From: Candidatus Saccharimonadota bacterium
GTDB taxonomy: Bacteria; Patescibacteriota; Gracilibacteria; Absconditabacterales; Absconditicoccaceae
Direction: 5' to 3'
DNA: 32,000 bases
Assembly (NCBI GenBank): GCA_000503875.1
Contig: CP006913.1
Coordinates: forward strand, 480,001 to 512,000
Shown: positions 2,909-31,541 of the stretch, in pieces
How the letters are laid out: the number at the start of each line of letters is the position of its first letter
Numbering within the stretch: position 1 is the stretch's first letter
Notes under the pieces: generated by a model
What the model was told of the DNA's origin: nothing
Seen by the model: only the letters and a program-made list of their open reading frames with translations
The model's database searches: none
Made by a program: the position numbers and the translations under genes

Positions 2909-4669
2909 ATGACTGAAATTACTTTCAAAGACTTAGGGCTGTCTTCAAGAGCTCTAGAATGATTAGAAAAAAAATGATTTAAAATTCCTTCTCCTATCCA
3001 AGCCGAGGTTATTCCTTTGTTGATTGCCAACAAAAAGAATATTATAGGACAAGCTGCTACAGGAACAGGTAAAACAGCTGCTTTTTGATTACCTTTAATT
3101 GAAAATCTTAAGCACGAAAATCACATTCAAGCACTTATTTTGGTACCAACAAGAGAATTAGCCGTACAAGTTGCTGAAGAAATAAATTCATTACAGTATC
3201 CAAAGAACCTAAGTATTGTTGCTATTTACGGAGGACAATCTTATGAAATTCAAAATAGAGCTCTCAAAAAGGGAATAGATATCGTAGTAGGTACACCAGG
3301 AAGAGTTATGGATCATCTCAATAGAAGAACATTAAAAATAGAAGAGATCAAATATTTCATTCTTGATGAAGCGGATGAAATGCTCAATATGGGATTTATT
3401 GACGATATTGAAACAATTTTCAAACAAACAAATCCAGATAAAAGAGTATTGTTGTTTTCTGCAACTATGCCAAGAGAAATTCTTTCTGTTGCAAAAAAAT
3501 ACATGGGAGAATATGATCTTGTAGCCATCAAAAAAAATGAAAACATAACTGCCCTTACCGAACAATTCTATATTCAAATCAGTGAAAGAGATAAGTTAGA
3601 AGCACTATGTAGAATTATGGATAAAGAAGATGATTTTTATGGAATAGTGTTTTGTAAAACAAAATTGGACGTAGACCATGTTTTTGCTAGACTTCATGAA
3701 AAAGGATACAGTACCCAAGCACTTCATGGTGATGTACAACAAAAGCAAAGAGAAAATATCCTTAAATTATTTAAAACTAAAAAAACCAAAATTCTGGTAG
3801 CAACCGACGTTGCGGCTAGAGGAATCGACGTAAACGATATTTCTCACGTTATCAATTTTGGATTACCACAAGATCCAGAAAGTTATGTGCATAGAATTGG
3901 AAGAACAGGAAGAGCGGGAAAGACAGGAACTGCAATTACTTTCGTAACGCCTAGCGAATATAGAAAATTCGTATTTTTCCAAAAAGCGACAAATAATACC
4001 GTAAAAAAGATAGAAATCCCTGCAATAGCCCACGTTATTGAAACAAAAAAGAAGAAATTAAAAGCAAATATAACAGAAATGTTGGAAAAAGGGGCTCATG
4101 AAAAATATCTAACTATAGCTCAAGAGCTTTTACAAGAAAGAGAAGCTGATCATGTGCTTGCTGCATTATTGAGAATAGCTTATTCAAACGAATTTAACGA
4201 AGAACATTATACTACTATAGAAAAAACTTCTTCATCAGTAAATACTCCTGGAGAAGGAAAAGCAAGAATATTTATCGCTTTAGGAAAAACAGCTGGATAT
4301 TATCCAAAAACTATGGTAGATTTTATTACCGAAGAAACAGGTGTCCCTTCAAGAGAAATCGATGACGTAAGAGTTTTAGAAGATTTTTCATTTATCACCG
4401 TACCTGAATATCAATCTGAAGTAGTAATTAAAACGCTAAAAGGAACAGCAAGCAGAGCCAAAGACGATAAAGGTAGCTGAAGTGGAGATAGATGAGGAAG
4501 AGGATGATTTAGAGGTTGAAGCAGAGGAGGAGATAGATGAGGAGACAGAGGATGATTTAGAGGTTGAAGCAGAGGAGGAGATAGATGATGATTTAGAGGT
4601 TGAAGTAGATGAGGAGATAAAAGACCAGAAAGAAGTTGAAGAACATTTGAAAAAGGACCAAGAAAATAA
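2909..4669 (+). CDS. DEAD-box ATP-dependent RNA helicase (CshA/DeaD-like) with DbpA-type RNA-binding domain and C-terminal RGG tail, 586 aa
   Basis: Motifs found: [19 protein letters not shown] (the G of FGLP is TGA 3086-3088), [23 protein letters not shown]. The track ORF 3140..4480 is the central fragment. The frame runs through 12 further TGAs to TAA 4667-4669. Confidence 0.95.
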
Positions 4670-4815: not shown

Positions 4816-5517
4816 ATGCATTATCCAAAACATGTAGCTGTTATTCCTGATGGGAACAGAACTCGAGCCAAAGAGAACAATGTAAGTATTCCTGAAGCAT
4901 ATTGGGTATCTTACCAAAAAGGAGTTGATATGTTAGAATATACATTTACAAACACTGATGTTAGTGTTTTTACTCTACGAGGATTAAGTACAGAAAACAC
5001 AGCAAAAAGACCACAAGAAGAATATGATTTCCTTATGAATATGTATAAACAAGTAGATAGTAAATTAGATGAAATCTTAGAAAAAAATCAGATTAATTTT
5101 ATGCGAATAGGAAATCCAGCATGAGTTACTGACGGATTCAAGAATTATCTCAATGAAAAAAAAACAAGATTTAGCTATCCAACAAATAAACGATTTGTAT
5201 TTGCTATAAATTACGGGTGAAGAGATGAGATAACAAGAGGAATTCAAAAATTAGCTCAACAAGGTATGGATTTGAGTAATGTTACCGAAGAAGATATTAC
5301 TGCTGCACTAGATTTGGGGCATATACCTCCTATTGAACTAGTAATTAGAACAAAATGAGATCAAGCTCAAAGAACATCTGGATTTATGTCTTGGTGGATT
5401 GGATATGCAGAATTATATTTTACTGCAAAAAGATGTCCAGAATTAGATATTCCAACATTTAAAGAAGCTCTTGCTTGGTTTGATACTATGGCAGAAAAAC
5501 GTAATTTCGGAAAATAA
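4816..5517 (+). CDS. uppS: Undecaprenyl-diphosphate synthase (cis-prenyltransferase), 233 aa
   Basis: HVAVIPDGNRT[CGA]AK matches the DGNxRWA motif. Also LSTEN, AINYGGRDEI (G is TGA 5218-5220) and RTSGFMSWWIGYAELYF. Confidence 0.9.
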
Positions 5518-19697: not shown

Positions 19698-21644
19698 ATG
19701 CAAATCATCTCAGCAAACATTTCAAATATATTAAGTTTTCCTTATCAGGAACAATTTTCTGAAGAAAGAAAAATCCATTTTGATGTCAATAAAAAATGAT
19801 GATTAAACATTTTGATAGGTCCAAACGGATCAGGTAAAACGAATTTTTTGGAAATTATTACACAACTCATAAAAGTAGGATTAATCAAAGATTTCGTATA
19901 TACAGAAAATAATGGTATTCAAAACAGTATAATAGAAAATCAATGGCCACTAGAAAATATGATTCCTCATTTTTCTTATCAAGACAAACCATCAATCGTA
20001 GATATGGAATTTCATGTATCCGAAAATGACAAAGAAAATATGTTATTTATCCAAAAAAAACAAGAAATATTTTCAAAAATTATCGAAACATATTCAACAA
20101 CAAAATATAAGATTCCTGTATGTGATATAGAAAAAATCAAAAATCTTCAAACACTCCATATCCAATTCACTATAGACACAACAAATAAAACCGCACATAT
20201 TAGCAATAAATCCAAAAATAAAATTGAAAATTTTGCTATAGAATACCTAATATATCAAGAACTATTTCAAATAGCAATTATGATATATAACAACAATATT
20301 AAAAAATCTGATGAATTATGACGATATCCTTTAAAAAATACATTTGGACACCTTCATAACACAAGAAATTTCTATCATCTCAAAAAAGATATAGCGCAAC
20401 ACAATCTTCGAGACGATTTTATTAGCAAAAAAAATTACAGAGAAAATAATTCCTTATTGGGATATGCTTTATGCATCAAAAAGCTTCATAATATTATCAC
20501 ACATACTTCCGAGGAAAATAGAGATCAGAAGGAAGATAATTATAAACTAACAGAAGAAAATATTGAAAAAAAATTAGAAAATTCCCTTTTTTATACATCA
20601 CTCAAAAAGAGTATCAAAAAATATCTAAATCTTGAATTAAAAGTATCATACAAAAACGAACATATAGAACTTTATTTTATAAACACAACCTGACAAGAAC
20701 AAACACTTCATAGTATCAGTAATTGAGAACAATCATTACTTATTATATTACTTACTATTTATGGATTTGATCTCAAAGATGGTATACTTATTATTGATGA
20801 ACCTGAACTTCATTTTCATCCTCAAATGCAAAGAAGACTAGCAAAAATGTTAGAAAAGCTCAATCACAATATCGGTACACAGTGTATTATATCAACATAT
20901 TCCCCTATTTTTATTGATGAGAAAAACATTACTAACGTATATAGATTTAGCAAAAAAAGTTGAGAGACTCAAGTAAGAATACCAGATAAAACAATATGAC
21001 ATGATGAATCAAGCCTTATTCAGATTCTTAAATTTGAAAATGCAGCTAAAATATTTTTTGTAGATAAAATTATTATGGTAGAAGGAGAAATTGACGCTTA
21101 TTTCTTTGAACACTATTTGCAATATCTTCACAACTTACCGCAAGGAAAGTGAAAAGAAGTTATAACCAATTATGAAATTATCAATATCAACGGCAAAGGA
21201 TCTTACAAAAAGCGAAGTGCTTTTCTCAAAAAATTCTGAATAGAATCATATTTTATAGGAGATTGGGATAATATCGTAGATTACGGTTTTATCAGTCAAC
21301 AAGATCTTAATTTTTACTATAAACAAGCAAAAACATTTTATCATACCCACAAAAAAGACAAAGAAACAACAGATCGTTACTACGCAAAATTAGTAAATGC
21401 GGTAAAATATCTATATCCAAACAAATATAGCTCAATTTTGGAAAAAATAGATTTTCTTTATACAAAAAACGTTTTTATTTTAAAAAAAGGTGATATAGAA
21501 ACTTACCTTGGTATACAATCAAAATGATTAGAAGAGACTATAGCTTTTTGCCATAACTTCTTTGACGTGCGGTTACAAAACAAAAATTTAGCTGAACACA
21601 GAAAAGAACTAGACCATATTCTATTTACTATTTTTTCCCAATAG
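19698..21644 (+). CDS. OLD-family nuclease: ABC-type ATPase plus C-terminal Toprim domain, 648 aa
   Basis: Walker A LIGPNGSGKTNFLE; ABC signature SISNGEQS (G is TGA 20724-20726); Walker B ILIIDEPELHFHP. Toprim Glu in IIMVEGEID and DxD in FIGDWDN. Three track fragments plus gaps form one frame, ending at TAG 21642-21644. Confidence 0.85.
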
Positions 21645-23734: not shown

Positions 23735-24139
23735 TTAATCCCCAATAATATCATCAAAAACATCTTCTTTTCCATCCTCAAGATACTTATGAATAGCATT
23801 TCTAGAAGCCAATAAAGCAATTACTGCCGCCCTCTTTCTTCTTGGCGAAACTTCAAATCACAAAGAAAGTATTTTAGAATAATCCCGAGTAAGAACTTCA
23901 TGAATATCAATTCAGACAATTATCTCTGACAATATACTTGCAGCAGCCGTTGTTATAGTTGAACAATTACCATCAAAGCTATATGCATGAACAATATTAT
24001 TCTCTATATGAAGATAAACAGTGATATCATCTCAACAAATAAAATTTCCTTCATGTTGTTTGATAGTATAATCTTTCATAGCAAAATTACAGAGTGGGTT
24101 TTTCGCATATTCCTGGATCATTACACTCAATTCTTCCAT
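23735..24139 (-). CDS. NifU/IscU/SufU-like Fe-S cluster scaffold, 134 aa
   Basis: EYAKNPLCNF...NFICGDDITVYLHIENNIVHAYSFDGNCSTITTAAASILSEIIVG fits the xCGD...F.G.GC...A.AS scaffold pattern. Confidence 0.75.
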
Positions 24140-25360: not shown

Positions 25361-26202
25361 GAGGATTTTTTTAGAGAACGATACATAAGAAAAATTCCTA
25401 TAATAAAGAAAAGGACAAAAAACCGCTGACTCTTAGTTAAAAAAGCTACATATTCTGATTGACTATCCATTCTTAGATATTCTAAGAAGAATCTTACGAA
25501 TGAGTACCAAACAAGAAAAAAAGATGACAGAAAGCCAATAGTTCGTCTGTTTTTTTTCAAAGAAACAAATAAAACAATACTAGAAAATAGTAAAACAACA
25601 AACCCCTCAAAAAAACTAGCCAAAAAATTAGTATTTATTCTCAAAAATCAATCAACACGGTCATAAATATAAAATAGATGAATATACGAAAAAAACGATA
25701 CGATATGAGATCAAAGAGATGGAAAAACATCAGTAACCAAACGTCCATATAATTCCTGATTTAAAAAATTACCAATTCTTCAAAACATTATTCCAAATGA
25801 AGTAGGCAAAATAAGTAAATCTGCCAAAGTCCAAAAATCACGAAAAGAAAATTTATATTTACGAATAATAAATAATAAAGCGGTTATAACTCATAAAATA
25901 CCACCTATAAATGACATTCACCCCTCCCAAATAGCAAAAACGCGTAAAGGATGTTCTAAGTAATAACTAAAATCATAAATAAAGATATGTCCTAATCTTC
26001 ATCAAACAAGAAGTCATAAGACAGTATACAAAACAATATCCTCTGGAGATTTTTGTAATAAACTATAAAAACCTGGAGCATATTTTTCAAAAAAAGAATA
26101 CCTTTTAATATACATAAAAAACAGATATCCAGCAAGAAAAGCAAGAAAATAGAAAATACCATACCAATAAATCGAAATTCAAAACAAAGAAAAAGCTACC
26201 AT
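25348..26202 (-). CDS. lgt: Prolipoprotein diacylglyceryl transferase, 284 aa
   Basis: GGRLGHIFIY, IWEGGMSFIGGILG, FGRIGNFLNQELYG, VRFFLEYLR. Several of the Gly residues are TGA-encoded. Confidence 0.9.
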
Positions 26203-28117: not shown

Positions 28118-29434
28118 CTATTCTGCTTTTGTTTTTACATTTTCATATACTTCTTGAAGCGTAATATGTCATTGAATTGCTTTAAAAACACCATCTCTTT
28201 CAAGATTAATCATTCCATGTTGAAGTGCATATGCTTCTACTTCAAAAGCAGATTTACCTGCCAAAAGAAGTGTTTTGAGATCATCTGTATAATCCATCAT
28301 TTCAAAAAGTCAGATTCTTCATTTACATCAAGATCAATGACAAACAGGACATACTAATCATGTTTCTGGATCTTTTCCAGTTCCCGTCATAATCATTCCT
28401 TCGTTAATAAAAGAATTTCGTTGTTCTTGTGTTATATTTCTACTAATGATTTCTTTTTTCAAAAGCTCTGGAATAATATTTTTAAAACTAGATACTGCAA
28501 AACGATGTTGAGGTGTTCCTTTTACAGAAGTTGCTTGTTTACAATGATAACATACTTTTCTTGCCAATCTTTCTGCCATAACAAGATTAAAAGTACCAGC
28601 CAACATATACGGCTTTGCACCAAGATTAAATACCCTAGTAATAGTTTCAGCTGATGAATTTGTATGTATTGTAGAAAATACTAAATGTCAGGTCATAGCA
28701 GCTTCCATAGCCATATCCAATGTTTCTCTATCACGGATTTCTCACACCATAATAATATCTGGATCTTGTCTCAGCGCTCATCTCAAACCATTTGCAAAAG
28801 TAAATCAAATATCAGTTCTAACCTGAGCTTGATTTAAACCAGGCATTTTATTTTCGACAGGATCTTCATAGGTGATAATATTTACTTCTGGTTTATTAAT
28901 ATAATCAAGAGCAGCATACAATGTTGTTGTTTTTCCAGATCCCGTAGGACCAGTCATCAAAATAATTCCATTAGGATAATCCAAATGTTTATTGATAATA
29001 TCCTTATTAGAACCATCAATTCCAAGTTCATGCAAAGGAGGAATTTTTTTTGATTTATCTACAATACGCATTACCAATTTTTCTCACCAAACCGTAGGTA
29101 ACGTATTTGCACGAAGATCTATTTCTTTATTTGTTTGTGTTATACTAGAAACTCTAGCATCTTGTGGAAGCCTTTTTTCATCAGGCCTCATTTGACCAGA
29201 CTCAATTTTGAATTTAGAAATAATACTTTCATGAAGATTTCTAGGAAATTGCATCAATTCTTCTAAAATACCATCAATTCTAATTCTAATTCTAGAATAG
29301 TTTTCCAAAGGTTCTATGTGAATATCAGATGCTCACTCCTCAACCGCGACGGTCAACAAGTTATCAAAAATTTTAACAACATCTGAGTCTACAATAGCTT
29401 GCGTTAGTCTTTGTCTATAATCAACAGTAACCAT
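28118..29434 (-). CDS. pilB: Type IV pilus / T2SS assembly ATPase (GspE/PilB family, short form), 438 aa
   Basis: ASDIHIEP, Walker A MTGPTGSGKTTTLYA, Asp box, Walker B DPDIIMVGEIRD, His box TGHLVFSTIHTN. Tetracysteine motif CYHC...CPVCHGSGCKGRIG. Assembled from four track fragments. Confidence 0.92.
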
Positions 29435-29619: not shown

Positions 29620-30003
29620 ATGAATAGAGAACGAACGCTTATTTTCTGAATTATTATTGGACTTCTCATAGGATATCTCATAGCAAGAATATATTTTTTT
29701 ATAAAAATAAAACACCAACGCCAAGATGCAGTTACAAGATCTCGCAATGTTGTTCTTGGTAATGTAAACGAAAAAATAGCTCCCCTTCTCCCAGGTTTTC
29801 CTTATCATTACAAGGATTTAATGTTTTTGGGGAAATGAATAGATTATATTGTTTTTGACTGATTAAGTCATTGAAATTTAACAAAAATAGTTTTCCTTGA
29901 AATTAAAACTAATTCCTCTACCCTCAACAGAAATGAAACAATGATAAAACAATGTATCGAACAAAAAAAGGTTGAATATCAAATTTATAGGAAGATAGTT
30001 TAA
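29620..30003 (+). CDS. Membrane-anchored Holliday-junction-resolvase-like endonuclease-fold protein (PF10107-like), 127 aa
   Basis: N-terminal TM segment, then KDLMFLGKGIDYIVFDG...IVFLEIKTNSSTLNRNE, which fits a D...E-x-K nuclease-fold pattern. The last 15 nt overlap the tRNA. Confidence 0.55.
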
Positions 30004-30059
30004 TGGTAAAATACAAGACTCCGAATCCTGTGTTGTAGGTTCGATTCCTACTCTTCCTG
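29989..30059 (+). tRNA. tRNA with anticodon CCG on a tRNA-Trp-like body (candidate CGG-to-Trp decoder)
   Basis: Hand-folded cloverleaf. Acceptor AGGAAGA/TCTTCCT; D stem GTTT/AAAT with loop AATGGTA. Anticodon stem CAAGA/TCCTG (one A-C mismatch) with loop CTCCGAA (CCG at 30021-30023). Variable region TGTT; T arm GTAGG-TTCGATT-CCTAC; discriminator G; no encoded CCA. Confidence 0.9.
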
Positions 30060-30159
30060 AATAGCAAATAAATATTGACATTTTAAATGTAAAATAAAAA
30101 GAGATATAGATAAAATTCTATATATAAATACAATTTTTTACCAAAAAATATGTCTACAT

Positions 30160-30843
30160 ATGTCCAAATTAAAACAAATATTTACATATATAAAGAGACT
30201 TTTCCCCGATCCAAAGACTGAATTAATATATAATATGCCATTTCAATTAGTAGTAGCTGTAATATTATCAGCTCAGACAACTGATATACAAGTAAACAAA
30301 GCAACTTCAAATTTATTCAAAAATATATATACTCCCCAAAATATAATACAAATATGACAATCAAAATTAATAAAGTCAATATCGTCAATTAATTACTATA
30401 AGACCAAATGAAAAAATATATTTCTCTTATCTAAGCTTATTGTAGACAGTAAAAAAGTAAAAGATTTATGAATAGAAAAATGGAATACCTACGAGGATAA
30501 AAATAATATATATTTTATACCCAACACAATAGAGGGACTTAAAAAATTGCCTTGAATTTGAGAAAAAACAGCAAAAGTAGTAGCTCATGTATTATTTTGA
30601 GCACCAGTTATTGCAGTAGATACCCATGTTCATAGAGTATGTAATAGATTATGAATAGTTTCAACAAAAACTCCTGAACAAACTTCAAAATTACTTGAAA
30701 ATATTATTCCAAAACAATACAAATCAATTGCTCATCATAGTATAATCCTCTTTTGAAGATATTATTGCACAGCCAAAAAACCCAAATGTGAAACATGCGA
30801 ATTACAAAGCATCTGTAAACGATATCAATCAATTAAAAAGTAA
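30160..30843 (+). CDS. nth: Endonuclease III (DNA glycosylase/AP lyase), 227 aa
   Basis: LVVAVILSAQTTD; HhH motif LPGIGEKTAKVV...DTHVHRV. The Fe-S cluster loop is CTAKKPKCETCELQSIC. Confidence 0.9.
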
Positions 30844-30926: not shown

Positions 30927-31541
30927 ATGAATCTTATTGAACCAAAACGATGACTTGAATTAGTTCTATCTCTTCATCAAGCAATGCTTTCATCGCAACT
31001 ACGAACAGTTCTTACTCCAACACTAGCTGATGTTTTCGTATTCAGTTACCCTATCTATCTAATAGTTCTTTATAGTATAGGACGAATTAAAAAACAGATC
31101 AGTTATAAAGTTGCATCGCTCTGGATTTTTGCCAATGTGGTTGTTACCACTCTGGTAAACATAGGAATCCAAGCACTTGTCCAAAAATCCAGGCCAAATA
31201 TTGTCCTCTGATTAATTGATGAGAAAGTAGAAACTGTTCTTCATAAATTTTTACCTACAAGTAGTTTTCCTTCTGATCATGCTGCAGTTTCTATGAGTAT
31301 AGCAGTAGCAACATTCCTTCGATGAATACAAAAAAAAGACAGGAAATATATCTATTTTTCAATTATCTTATTCGTTTTTAGTTGTATTATGTGTGTATCT
31401 AGAATAGCTACCGCTGTACATCGACCAACAGATATTTTAGGTGGGATTTTGGTAGGGGCCATCATTCCTCTACTTCTTAGCACAAAAAAAATCTCCTCAT
31501 TTGGAGAGAAGATTTCTTTATGGATAGGAAAGAAAATTTAA
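30927..31541 (+). CDS. PAP2-family phosphatase (undecaprenyl-diphosphatase/BcrC-like), 204 aa
   Basis: The three PAP2 motifs are present: KSRP, PSDH and SRIATAVH[CGA]PTD. Multiple TM segments. Confidence 0.8.

What the first reader, a model, noticed from the sequence alone, without database searches (positions are those of the whole stretch)
29989..30059. The only tRNA in the window has a tRNA-Trp body with anticodon CCG
The cloverleaf has the A1:U72 pair and G73 discriminator, which are the classical bacterial TrpRS identity elements. It lacks A20, the major ArgRS determinant; its D loop is AAUGGUA with U at position 20. It aligns almost arm for arm with E. coli tRNA-Trp: UAGUU.AAU.GGUA, anticodon loop CUCCGAA versus CUCCAAA, variable region UGUU versus GUGUU, and T loop UUCGA. 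The anticodon differs from CCA by a single base (CCA to CCG) and would read CGG. This looks like the physical decoder for CGG to Trp. It probably arose by duplication and anticodon mutation of tRNA-Trp. CGA would additionally need a UCG-anticodon tRNA, which is not present in this window.
Basis: partly seen in the sequence, partly recalled or inferred. Interest (0 to 1): 0.9.

Follow-up and report, generated by a model that had tools for sequence, protein, structure and literature searches.

The report
Tryptophan-type tRNA reading CGG (known)

Summary
There is one tRNA in the window, at 29989-30059 (+). Its anticodon is CCG. It has A1:U72, G73, D loop AAUGGUA (U20, no A20) and A37, and no encoded CCA.

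The window comes from SR1 bacterium RAAC1_SR1_1 or a near-identical genome (GCA_003543185.1). Here UGA is read as Gly, and CGA and CGG sit at Trp positions. In codon-level alignments with relatives, CGG pairs with CGA, UGG and hydrophobic or aromatic codons, and never with Arg or Lys. AGA, AGG, CGU and CGC pair with Arg or Lys.

Ten distinct versions of this tRNA (nine from the same neighbourhood) keep A1:U72, G3:C70, G73, U20 and CCG-A37 unchanged. Thirteen of 21 stem pairs vary with compensating changes.

Charging with Trp is therefore well supported but still inferred. It is already known: Shulgina & Eddy (eLife 2021) described CGA/CGG to Trp in Absconditabacteria, with Trp-like tRNA(UCG) and tRNA(CCG). 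This very assembly is in their source data.

- Lack of A20 is not diagnostic in this group. A genuine Patescibacterial tRNA-Arg(GCG) has U20 and the same D arm.
- Origin by duplication of tRNA-Trp could not be shown. I never reached the clade's own tRNA-Trp(CCA) or tRNA-Arg.

The parts
29989..30059 (+). tRNA gene with anticodon CCG, 71 nt, no encoded CCA. It is the likely Trp-accepting decoder of CGG.
   Evidence: ARAGORN. Rfam tRNA at 67.3 bits. Covariation over 10 distinct versions: 96.7% of cells paired, 13 of 21 pairs with compensating changes, 0 of 500 shuffles as good.
29989..29995 (+). 5' strand of the acceptor stem (AGGAAGA). It pairs with 30052-30058 (UCUUCCU). A1:U72 is 29989:30058.
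   Evidence: Read from the sequence. A1:U72 is found in 10 of 10 versions while pairs 2, 4, 5, 6 and 7 covary.
30059..30059 (+). Discriminator base G73.
   Evidence: Invariant in alignment A3.
30002..30008 (+). D loop AAUGGUA. Position 20 is U, so there is no A20.
   Evidence: U20 is found in 10 of 10 versions.
30021..30023 (+). Anticodon CCG, in the loop CUCCGAA (A37).
30016..30028 (+). A29·C41 mismatch in the anticodon stem (A at 30016, C at 30028). The closest relatives, L013 and L018, have G29:C41.
   Evidence: An independent re-assembly of the same reads shows the same base.
29620..30003 (+). ORF for a Holliday-junction-resolvase-like protein (PF10107). Its last 15 nt, including the stop codon TAA, lie inside the tRNA (acceptor and D stem).
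   Evidence: The protein is 100% identical to that of SR1 bacterium RAAC1_SR1_1.
30160..30843 (+). Endonuclease III (nth), the conserved downstream neighbour of the tRNA.
   Evidence: Conserved gene order in L005, L007, L008, L013, L015, L018, L022, L207 and L210.
28118..29434 (-). Type II/IV secretion ATPase (T2SSE), the conserved upstream neighbour.
21570..21572 (+). In-frame CGG codon in the OLD-family nuclease gene. The orthologous codon in L202 is CGA.
23885..23887 (-). In-frame CGG codon in the NifU/SufU-like gene. The orthologous codons are UGG, CGA and CGA.
25423..25425 (-). In-frame CGG codon in lgt. The orthologous codon in L211 is CGA, and E. coli Lgt has Ile at this position.
4864..4866 (+). 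CGA codon in uppS at the conserved Trp of the DGNGRWAK motif.
   Evidence: Alignment to three solved UppS structures.
31422..31424 (+). CGA codon in the PAP2 phosphatase gene. Across relatives this column is a mix of UGG, CGG and CGA.

Best explanation
This is a functional tRNA of an Absconditabacterales (SR1) bacterium. It pairs with CGG through its CCG anticodon and is charged with tryptophan by TrpRS. It is therefore one of the two adaptors that carry out the published CGA/CGG to Trp reassignment in this clade; the other is a tRNA(UCG) encoded elsewhere in the genome.

Shown here:
- The gene is a genuine, conserved tRNA under purifying selection.
- It carries the acceptor-end marks used by bacterial TrpRS (G73, A1:U72).
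- The genome reads UGA as Gly and uses CGG and CGA where relatives use UGG.

Inferred, not shown:
- The actual charging by TrpRS. This requires the enzyme to tolerate G36 in place of A36.
- Rejection by ArgRS.
- CCA addition after transcription.
- The division of labour with tRNA(UCG).
For: It is a real tRNA.

In 10 distinct versions from relatives, nine of them in the same neighbourhood (secretion ATPase, PF10107 ORF, tRNA, nth, PAP2), A1:U72, G3:C70, G73, U20, CCG and A37 are invariant. Thirteen of 21 stem pairs show compensating changes.

Codon evidence:
- ORFs are intact only if TGA is read through. TGA columns pair with Gly codons 561 times and with TGA 310 times, out of 1320 partner codons.
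- CGA sits at the invariant Trp of UppS.
- Twelve CGG columns have 70 partner codons: CGA 22, UGG 21, Leu 8, CGG 5, Tyr 4, and no Arg or Lys.
- Three of the window's own five in-gene CGG codons align to CGA or UGG.
- AGA, AGG, CGU and CGC columns pair mainly with Arg or Lys.

Literature:
- Shulgina & Eddy 2021 report CGA and CGG to Trp for all Absconditabacteria, with Trp-like tRNA(UCG) and tRNA(CCG).
- They list this assembly with one tRNA each of GCG, UCG, CCG and CCA, and none of ACG.
- A 2026 NAR paper repeats the assignment.

Against: There is no biochemical or proteomic evidence, here or in the cited papers.

G36 replaces A36, which is a major TrpRS identity base in E. coli (established knowledge: Himeno 1991; Giege 1998, as cited).

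C35, G36 and G73 are all compatible with ArgRS. Absence of A20 is not decisive in this group, because a genuine Patescibacterial tRNA-Arg(GCG) has U20 and the same D arm.

Home-made isotype profiles did not place the tRNA with Trp.

The window's copy has an A29·C41 mismatch.

CGG is very rare in this genome: 1.7 per 10,000 Pfam-aligned codons. Codetta left CGG as '?' for this assembly.
Confidence: 0.85

Rival explanations
1. It is an ordinary tRNA-Arg(CCG), as ARAGORN labels it. CGG would still mean arginine, and the Trp-like features would simply be the normal look of tRNA-Arg in this bacterial group.
For: ARAGORN labels it Arg by its anticodon. C35, G36 and G73 fit ArgRS rules. A genuine Patescibacterial tRNA-Arg(GCG) shares the D arm and U20. 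Home-made profiles score it slightly higher as Arg than as Trp.
Against: CGG and CGA columns never pair with Arg or Lys codons in relatives; they pair with UGG. CGA sits at the invariant Trp of UppS. The Patescibacterial Arg tRNAs have G1:C72 and A73, whereas all 10 versions here have A1:U72 and G73. The published Codetta inference for the clade is Trp.
Confidence: 0.03
2. The tRNA is charged by both TrpRS and ArgRS, so CGG is translated ambiguously. This would be tolerated because CGG is extremely rare.
For: The anticodon bases C35 and G36 are ArgRS determinants, and G36 is a mismatch for TrpRS (established knowledge). A20 may not be needed by ArgRS in this group. CGG usage is only 1.7 per 10,000 codons.
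Against: CGG, CGA and UGG interchange at conserved Trp or aromatic columns, with no Arg or Lys partners. In some relatives CGG is used repeatedly within a single gene, for example four times in PAP2 of L007. That argues against a harmful ambiguity.
Confidence: 0.08
3. The gene is a decaying or redundant copy. CGG would in practice be read by tRNA(UCG) through U·G wobble, and the A29·C41 mismatch would be a sign of relaxed selection.
For: The window's copy has an A·C mismatch that the nearest relatives lack. Some Absconditabacterales lack a tRNA at this locus. CGG is rare.
Against: It scores 67 bits against the tRNA model. There is strong conservation and covariation across deeply diverged relatives whose flanking proteins are only 47-55% identical. 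The identity bases are invariant.
Confidence: 0.04

Closest known systems
Trp-like tRNA(CCG) and tRNA(UCG) of Absconditabacteria (Shulgina & Eddy, eLife 2021, Figure 4-figure supplement 4)
   Same: Same clade and same code: UGA read as Gly, CGA and CGG read as Trp. It meets the same criteria of G73, no A20 and A1:U72. The source assembly GCA_003543185.1 and the near-identical RAAC1_SR1_1 are both in their source data, each with one tRNA(CCG).
   Different: Nothing essential. For this assembly Codetta left CGG as '?'. The codon-level comparisons here fill that gap: three of the window's CGG codons align to CGA or UGG.
Trp-like tRNA(CCG) of Anaerococcus, Finegoldia and the Onthovivens/uncultured Bacilli clade (CGG to Trp in Bacillota)
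   Same: They have A1:U72 (G1:U72 in some Finegoldia copies), G73, U20, a UAGUUUAAU(U)GGUA D arm and the loop CUCCGAA. Examples are L001, L003, L009, L014 and L017 (Finegoldia) and L010 and L012. The acceptor stem of L012 (AGGAAGU) is nearly the same as here (AGGAAGA).
   Different: They belong to a different phylum, encode CCA, and reassign only CGG. In Finegoldia the gene lies just downstream of tRNA-Trp(CCA) in a tRNA array. Here it is isolated between protein genes.
Met-accepting tRNA(CCU) of Enterosoma (AGG to Met)
   Same: It is also an arginine-box codon taken over by a tRNA with foreign identity marks and no A20.
   Different: There, conserved gene order showed that an Arg tRNA had switched identity in place. 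Here the origin could not be settled.
E. coli tRNA-Trp (trpT)
   Same: It shares A1:U72, G73, the UAGUUCAAUUGGUA D arm, the loop CUCCAAA (one base different) and the UUCGA T loop. Identity is 45/71.
   Different: Its anticodon is CCA, its variable region has 5 nt, it has G10:C25 rather than G10·U25, and it encodes CCA.
Canonical bacterial tRNA-Arg(CCG) (E. coli argX)
   Same: It has the anticodon CCG and G73.
   Different: argX has A20 (GGAUA), G37, G1:C72 and a GCUC/GAGC D stem. Identity is 35/71.

Membership tests
tRNA (Rfam RF00005) | Cloverleaf with conserved D- and T-loop bases, scoring above the family threshold | tested here: met
   67.3 bits against a gathering score of 29, over the full-length model. 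ARAGORN also calls it. Covariation supports all four helices.
Substrates of bacterial TrpRS (tRNA-Trp identity set) | Discriminator G73 | tested here: met
   G at 30059. Found in 10 of 10 versions.
Substrates of bacterial TrpRS (tRNA-Trp identity set) | A1:U72 (or G1:U72) first pair | tested here: met
   A at 29989 pairs with U at 30058. AU in 10 of 10 versions while the neighbouring pairs covary.
Substrates of bacterial TrpRS (tRNA-Trp identity set) | Anticodon C34-C35-A36 | tested here: not met
   The anticodon is CCG. C34 and C35 are present, but position 36 is G. This tRNA is therefore not a standard tRNA-Trp. The clade's TrpRS would have to tolerate G36.
Substrates of bacterial TrpRS (tRNA-Trp identity set) | Actual aminoacylation with tryptophan | not testable with these tools
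   This needs a charging assay or proteomics. The only support is indirect: CGG sits at Trp positions.
Substrates of bacterial ArgRS (tRNA-Arg identity set) | A20 in the D loop | tested here: not met
   The D loop is AAUGGUA, so position 20 is U. Caveat: the genuine tRNA-Arg(GCG) of a Patescibacterial MAG (L021) also has U20.
Substrates of bacterial ArgRS (tRNA-Arg identity set) | C35 with G36 or U36, and A73 or G73 | tested here: met
   C35, G36 and G73 are all present. These features alone do not exclude Arg charging.
Absconditabacterales code (UGA read as Gly, CGA and CGG read as Trp; Shulgina & Eddy 2021) | UGA is a sense codon at Gly positions | tested here: met
   ORF coverage rises from 0.55 to 1.36 when TGA is read through. 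TGA occurs in RGG repeats and in the FtsZ GGTGTG motif. Of the 1320 codons that pair with TGA, Gly accounts for 561 and TGA for 310.
Absconditabacterales code (UGA read as Gly, CGA and CGG read as Trp; Shulgina & Eddy 2021) | CGA and CGG occupy Trp positions, while CGU, CGC and AGR remain Arg | tested here: met
   CGG evidence inside the window itself is thin: five in-gene codons, three of which have informative orthologues.
Absconditabacterales code (UGA read as Gly, CGA and CGG read as Trp; Shulgina & Eddy 2021) | The source organism belongs to the clade | tested here: met
   The window lies on GCA_003543185.1 contig DPJE01000003.1. A neighbouring protein is 100% identical to that of SR1 bacterium RAAC1_SR1_1. 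Both assemblies are listed in the paper's source data.
   The clade's tRNA-Trp(CCA) and tRNA-Arg were never reached. Proxy comparisons tie: 43-49/71 to a BD1-5 tRNA-Trp against 42-49/71 to a Patescibacterial tRNA-Arg. The isotype profiles were uninformative. No CCA tRNA from this clade shares both arms in the metagenome scan.

The most novel reading that the evidence does not exclude
The tRNA did not come from tRNA-Trp. Instead it would be the clade's ancestral tRNA-Arg(CCG), which in this bacterial group already has a Trp/Gly-like D arm without A20. A few changes at the acceptor end (G1:C72 to A1:U72, A73 to G73) would have switched it to TrpRS. It might still be partly recognised by ArgRS, so that CGG was, or is, ambiguously decoded.
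Probability: 0.25. Interest if true: 0.5.

Novelty: already known. Interest (0 to 1): 0.2.

Why it matters
Sense-codon reassignment in bacteria is rare and matters for how the genetic code evolves. It also matters in practice: translating SR1/Absconditabacteria genomes with table 25 still puts Arg at every CGA and CGG codon where the cell almost certainly inserts Trp.

For this finding the biology is already published, so its value is confirmation rather than discovery. It shows that the signal can be read from a single 32-kb window. It adds codon-level support for CGG in a genome where the published screen gave no call.

The open points are where the tRNA came from, how TrpRS accepts G36, and how ArgRS is kept off when A20 may not be its key in this group.

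Tried and rejected
1. Genome-collection scan for tRNAs with a Trp-like D arm and a YCG anticodon. It gave 25 loci. These were useful for finding versions of this tRNA in relatives, but the pattern was too narrow: some clade versions have a different D stem or U32. It found no tRNA(UCG) from the clade.

2. Virus-collection scan for the D arm with any anticodon. The anticodons were CCA 49, UCC 44 and no Arg. This shows the D arm is typical of Trp and Gly(UCC) in phages, but it says nothing about this clade.

3. Metagenome scan for CCA tRNAs sharing both the D and T arms. It gave 45 hits. The ones whose codon usage looked like this clade turned out to be mitochondrial, Mollicutes-like or without recognisable genes. 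None is evidently from the clade, so a recent duplication from tRNA-Trp is not supported.

4. Extending the window by 10 kb on each side, plus nine further contig look-ups through homologues of the PF10107 protein. Besides versions of the CCG tRNA, only tRNA-Thr(GGU) and tRNA-Cys(GCA) turned up. The clade's tRNA-Trp(CCA), tRNA(UCG) and tRNA-Arg were never reached.

5. Overall-identity ranking against 1428 tRNAs, and home-made isotype profile HMMs with cross-validation. These were not discriminating. A genuine BD1-5 tRNA-Trp and genuine Patescibacterial tRNA-Arg fall in the same score range as this tRNA.

6. BLAST of the tRNA against E. coli genomes found no match. I fetched trpT and argX by coordinates instead.

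7. Promoter and terminator scan around the tRNA found nothing above chance.

8. Solved structures gave no clear answer for the window's CGG codons in SufU and Lgt. The SufU position is not conserved, and E. coli Lgt has Ile there.

Full report
**Observation.** ARAGORN finds a single tRNA in the window, at 29988-30060 on the + strand, with anticodon CCG. It names it Arg from the anticodon alone. Rfam's tRNA model matches 29989-30059 over its full length at 67.3 bits, E = 8.8e-13, and nothing else in the window reaches a family threshold.

The sequence is AGGAAGAUAGUUUAAUGGUAAAAUACAAGACUCCGAAUCCUGUGUUGUAGGUUCGAUUCCUACUCUUCCUG.
- A1:U72 (29989:30058) and G73 (30059);
- D loop AAUGGUA, so position 20 is U;
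- anticodon loop CUCCGAA, with CCG at 30021-30023;
- a 4-nt variable region and T loop UUCGAUU.

I fetched the real E. coli genes to check the claimed resemblance. trpT is AGGGGCG-UA-GUUC-AAUUGGUA-GAGC-A-CCGGU-CUCCAAA-ACCGG-GUGUU-GGGAG-UUCGAGU-CUCUC-CGCCCCU-G. The arm-by-arm comparison is therefore correct. Identity is 45/71 to trpT and 35/71 to argX, the E. coli tRNA-Arg(CCG). argX has A20, G37 and G1:C72.

There is an A29·C41 mismatch in the anticodon stem. No CCA is encoded. The upstream ORF overlaps the tRNA by 15 nt.

**Where the window comes from.** The window is 29% G+C, and its ORFs are intact only if TGA is read through. An exact-protein look-up places it on NCBI assembly GCA_003543185.1, contig DPJE01000003.1 (462 kb). 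The same organism appears in assemblies of a sediment metagenome, run SRR944699. The protein encoded just upstream of the tRNA is 100% identical to one from 'candidate division SR1 bacterium RAAC1_SR1_1', which has a 1.18-Mb genome. All 120 listed homologues look like Absconditabacterales.

**The code.** TGA falls at glycine positions, for example in RGG repeats and in the FtsZ GGTGTG motif. CGA sits at the invariant Trp of the UppS motif DGNGRWAK when aligned to three solved structures.

I then aligned 15 window genes, codon by codon, with their orthologues in 14 loci from related genomes.
- The 12 columns that contain CGG have 70 partner codons: CGA 22, UGG 21, Leu 8, CGG 5, Tyr 4, and not one Arg or Lys.
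- CGA columns pair with UGG 60 times, CGA 43 times and Tyr 21 times.
- As controls, AGA, AGG, CGU and CGC columns pair mainly with Arg or Lys, and TGA columns pair mainly with Gly.
- Of the window's five in-gene CGG codons, three have informative orthologues: OLD nuclease codon 625 aligns to CGA; SufU codon 85 to UGG, CGA and CGA; Lgt codon 261 to CGA.

So CGG, CGA and UGG are interchangeable in this clade, and CGG does not behave as an arginine codon.

**The tRNA across relatives.** A genome-collection scan and the contig look-ups recovered the same gene in the same neighbourhood (secretion ATPase, PF10107 ORF, tRNA(CCG), nth, PAP2). These genomes have flanking proteins only 47-92% identical to those of the window.

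Ten distinct sequences, nine from that neighbourhood plus one Trp-like CCG tRNA from a more distant MAG (L025), fit the cloverleaf. 96.7% of cells are paired, 13 of 21 pairs show changes on both sides, and none of 500 shuffles does as well.

A1:U72, G3:C70, G73, U20, the anticodon and A37 are invariant. Acceptor pairs 2, 4, 5, 6 and 7 and the whole anticodon stem covary. The D stem is not fixed: one lineage has GUGA/UCAC. What selection holds constant is therefore the acceptor end and the loops. That is what one expects if the acceptor end carries the identity signal.

More distant Absconditabacterales have the PF10107 gene but no tRNA beside it. These are Vampirococcus, Absconditicoccaceae and GCA_900198705.

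**How it most likely works.** The tRNA reads CGG by Watson-Crick pairing. It is charged by TrpRS through G73 and A1:U72, which are the published bacterial Trp determinants (quoted). CCA is added after transcription. CGA, the commoner reassigned codon, needs the tRNA(UCG) that the published table counts once in this assembly.

The charging step is inferred, not shown. G36 replaces a major TrpRS determinant, while C35, G36 and G73 suit ArgRS.

**A caveat on A20.** It is present in 31 of 33 Arg(ACG) and 39 of 48 Arg(UCU), and in 0 of 106 Trp.

However, a Patescibacterial MAG (L021) has tRNA(GCG) and tRNA(CCG) genes with G1:C72, A73 and U20. The GCG tRNA's D arm is identical to that of the window's tRNA. 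In that MAG, CGU and CGC encode the conserved arginines of a repeated LamG motif in 10 of 10 cases, so the GCG tRNA really is an Arg tRNA. Lack of A20 is therefore not a safe argument in this bacterial group. The discriminating features are 1:72 and 73, together with the codon evidence.

**Origin.** I could not reach the clade's own tRNA-Trp(CCA), tRNA(UCG) or tRNA-Arg genes.
- Proxy comparisons tie: 43-49/71 identity to a BD1-5 tRNA-Trp(CCA) taken from a paper's supplement, against 42-49/71 to the Patescibacterial tRNA-Arg(GCG).
- Isotype profiles that I built from the session's tRNA library separate ordinary Trp from Arg in cross-validation. They place a genuine BD1-5 tRNA-Trp, genuine Patescibacterial tRNA-Arg and this tRNA all in the same middle range.
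- A metagenome scan for CCA tRNAs with the same D and T arms returned 45 hits. The candidates I checked were mitochondrial or Mollicutes-like, not this clade. That argues against a recent duplication and says nothing about an old one.

**Comparison with what is known.** Shulgina & Eddy (eLife 2021, PMC8629427) inferred CGA and CGG to Trp for all Absconditabacteria. They showed the tRNA(UCG) and tRNA(CCG) of one SR1 genome with Trp identity features. They classed such tRNAs by G73 and no A20, with A/G1:U72 as supporting evidence.

Their source data list this very assembly with UGA Gly, CGA Trp and CGG '?'. It has one each of tRNA GCG, UCG, CCG and CCA, and CGG at 1.7 per 10,000 Pfam-aligned codons. 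RAAC1_SR1_1 is listed with the same calls and the same tRNA counts. A 2026 NAR paper (PMC13092985) restates the reassignment and surveys these CCG tRNAs. Two further literature searches found nothing else on the topic.

**Verdict.** The small additions here are:
- codon-level support for CGG to Trp in a genome where the published screen made no call;
- the conserved neighbourhood, and the invariance of the acceptor end across relatives;
- the warning that A20 is not diagnostic in this group;
- an honest 'unresolved' on the origin.

Noticed in passing
window 29989-30003: The PF10107 (Holliday-junction-resolvase-like) ORF ends inside the tRNA gene. Its last five codons and its TAA stop are the tRNA's acceptor 5' strand and D stem. 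The closest relatives, L013 and L018, show a similar overlap of about 12 nt. In L022 the protein alignment stops about 100 nt before the tRNA.
   Followed up: partly
window 30016 and 30028: The window's tRNA has an A29·C41 mismatch. The nearest relatives (about 80% DNA identity over this region) have G29:C41. It also differs from them at position 38 (A versus C) and at one variable-loop base. An independent re-assembly of the same sequencing run has the same bases.
   Followed up: partly
window, all ORFs: In the 34 ORFs of this window CGA (66) outnumbers UGG (42). The published genome-wide figures for Pfam-aligned codons are 25 (CGA) against 56 (UGG) per 10,000. My counts include some sequence upstream of true start codons and genes without Pfam domains, so the difference may be partly technical.
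   Followed up: no
window about 4480-4669: The C-terminal tail of the DEAD-box helicase is an RGG/FRG repeat in which most glycines are encoded by UGA (16 UGA against 7 GGN codons).
   Followed up: no
L021:4058-4131 and L021:7514-7587: A Patescibacterial MAG (DP16D_bin.9) has tRNA-Arg(GCG) and tRNA(CCG) with G1:C72, A73, U20 and a Trp/Gly-like D arm. CGU and CGC encode the conserved Arg of its LamG repeats. ArgRS in that lineage therefore apparently does not use A20.
   Followed up: partly
L195:149-219, L196:11780-11850, L197:3385-3455: Three large phage contigs (150-216 kb) carry an identical tRNA(CCG) with a Trp-like D arm, G1:C72 and a U73 discriminator. It sits among many other tRNAs; one contig also has a CUA suppressor tRNA. 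Its amino-acid identity is unclear.
   Followed up: no
L002:6170-6243 and L023:6395-6469: Two alphaproteobacterial MAG contigs of medium to high G+C (65% and 53%) carry tRNA(UCG) and tRNA(CCG) with U1:A72, G73, no A20 and a UAGUUYAACGGUAGAAC D arm. The acceptor end looks more like Gln or Trp than Arg.
   Followed up: no
L001, L003, L009, L014, L017: In Finegoldia the Trp-like tRNA(CCG) lies 130-220 nt downstream of tRNA-Trp(CCA), next to a long tRNA array. The two sequences are quite different from each other.
   Followed up: no
L004, L006, L010, L011, L020: Trp-like tRNA(CCG) genes (G73, U20, mostly A1:U72) occur on low-G+C contigs of MAGs labelled Staphylococcaceae, Bacillales UBA4855, Lachnospiraceae and Gemmiger formicilis. 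The Gemmiger and Lachnospiraceae labels look doubtful for contigs of 27-34% G+C.
   Followed up: no
L198, L201, L202, L211-L213: In Vampirococcus lugosii, Absconditicoccaceae and GCA_900198705 the PF10107 gene has different neighbours (serS upstream in most of them; nth not adjacent) and no tRNA beside it. The tRNA(CCG) locus is therefore conserved only in part of the order.
   Followed up: partly
L029:5119-5191 and L029:5343-5419 (about 4.6-4.9 kb upstream of the window's first base): The nearest other tRNAs in this genome are tRNA-Thr(GGU) and tRNA-Cys(GCA), next to smpB. About 52 kb around the finding holds only three tRNA genes.
   Followed up: no
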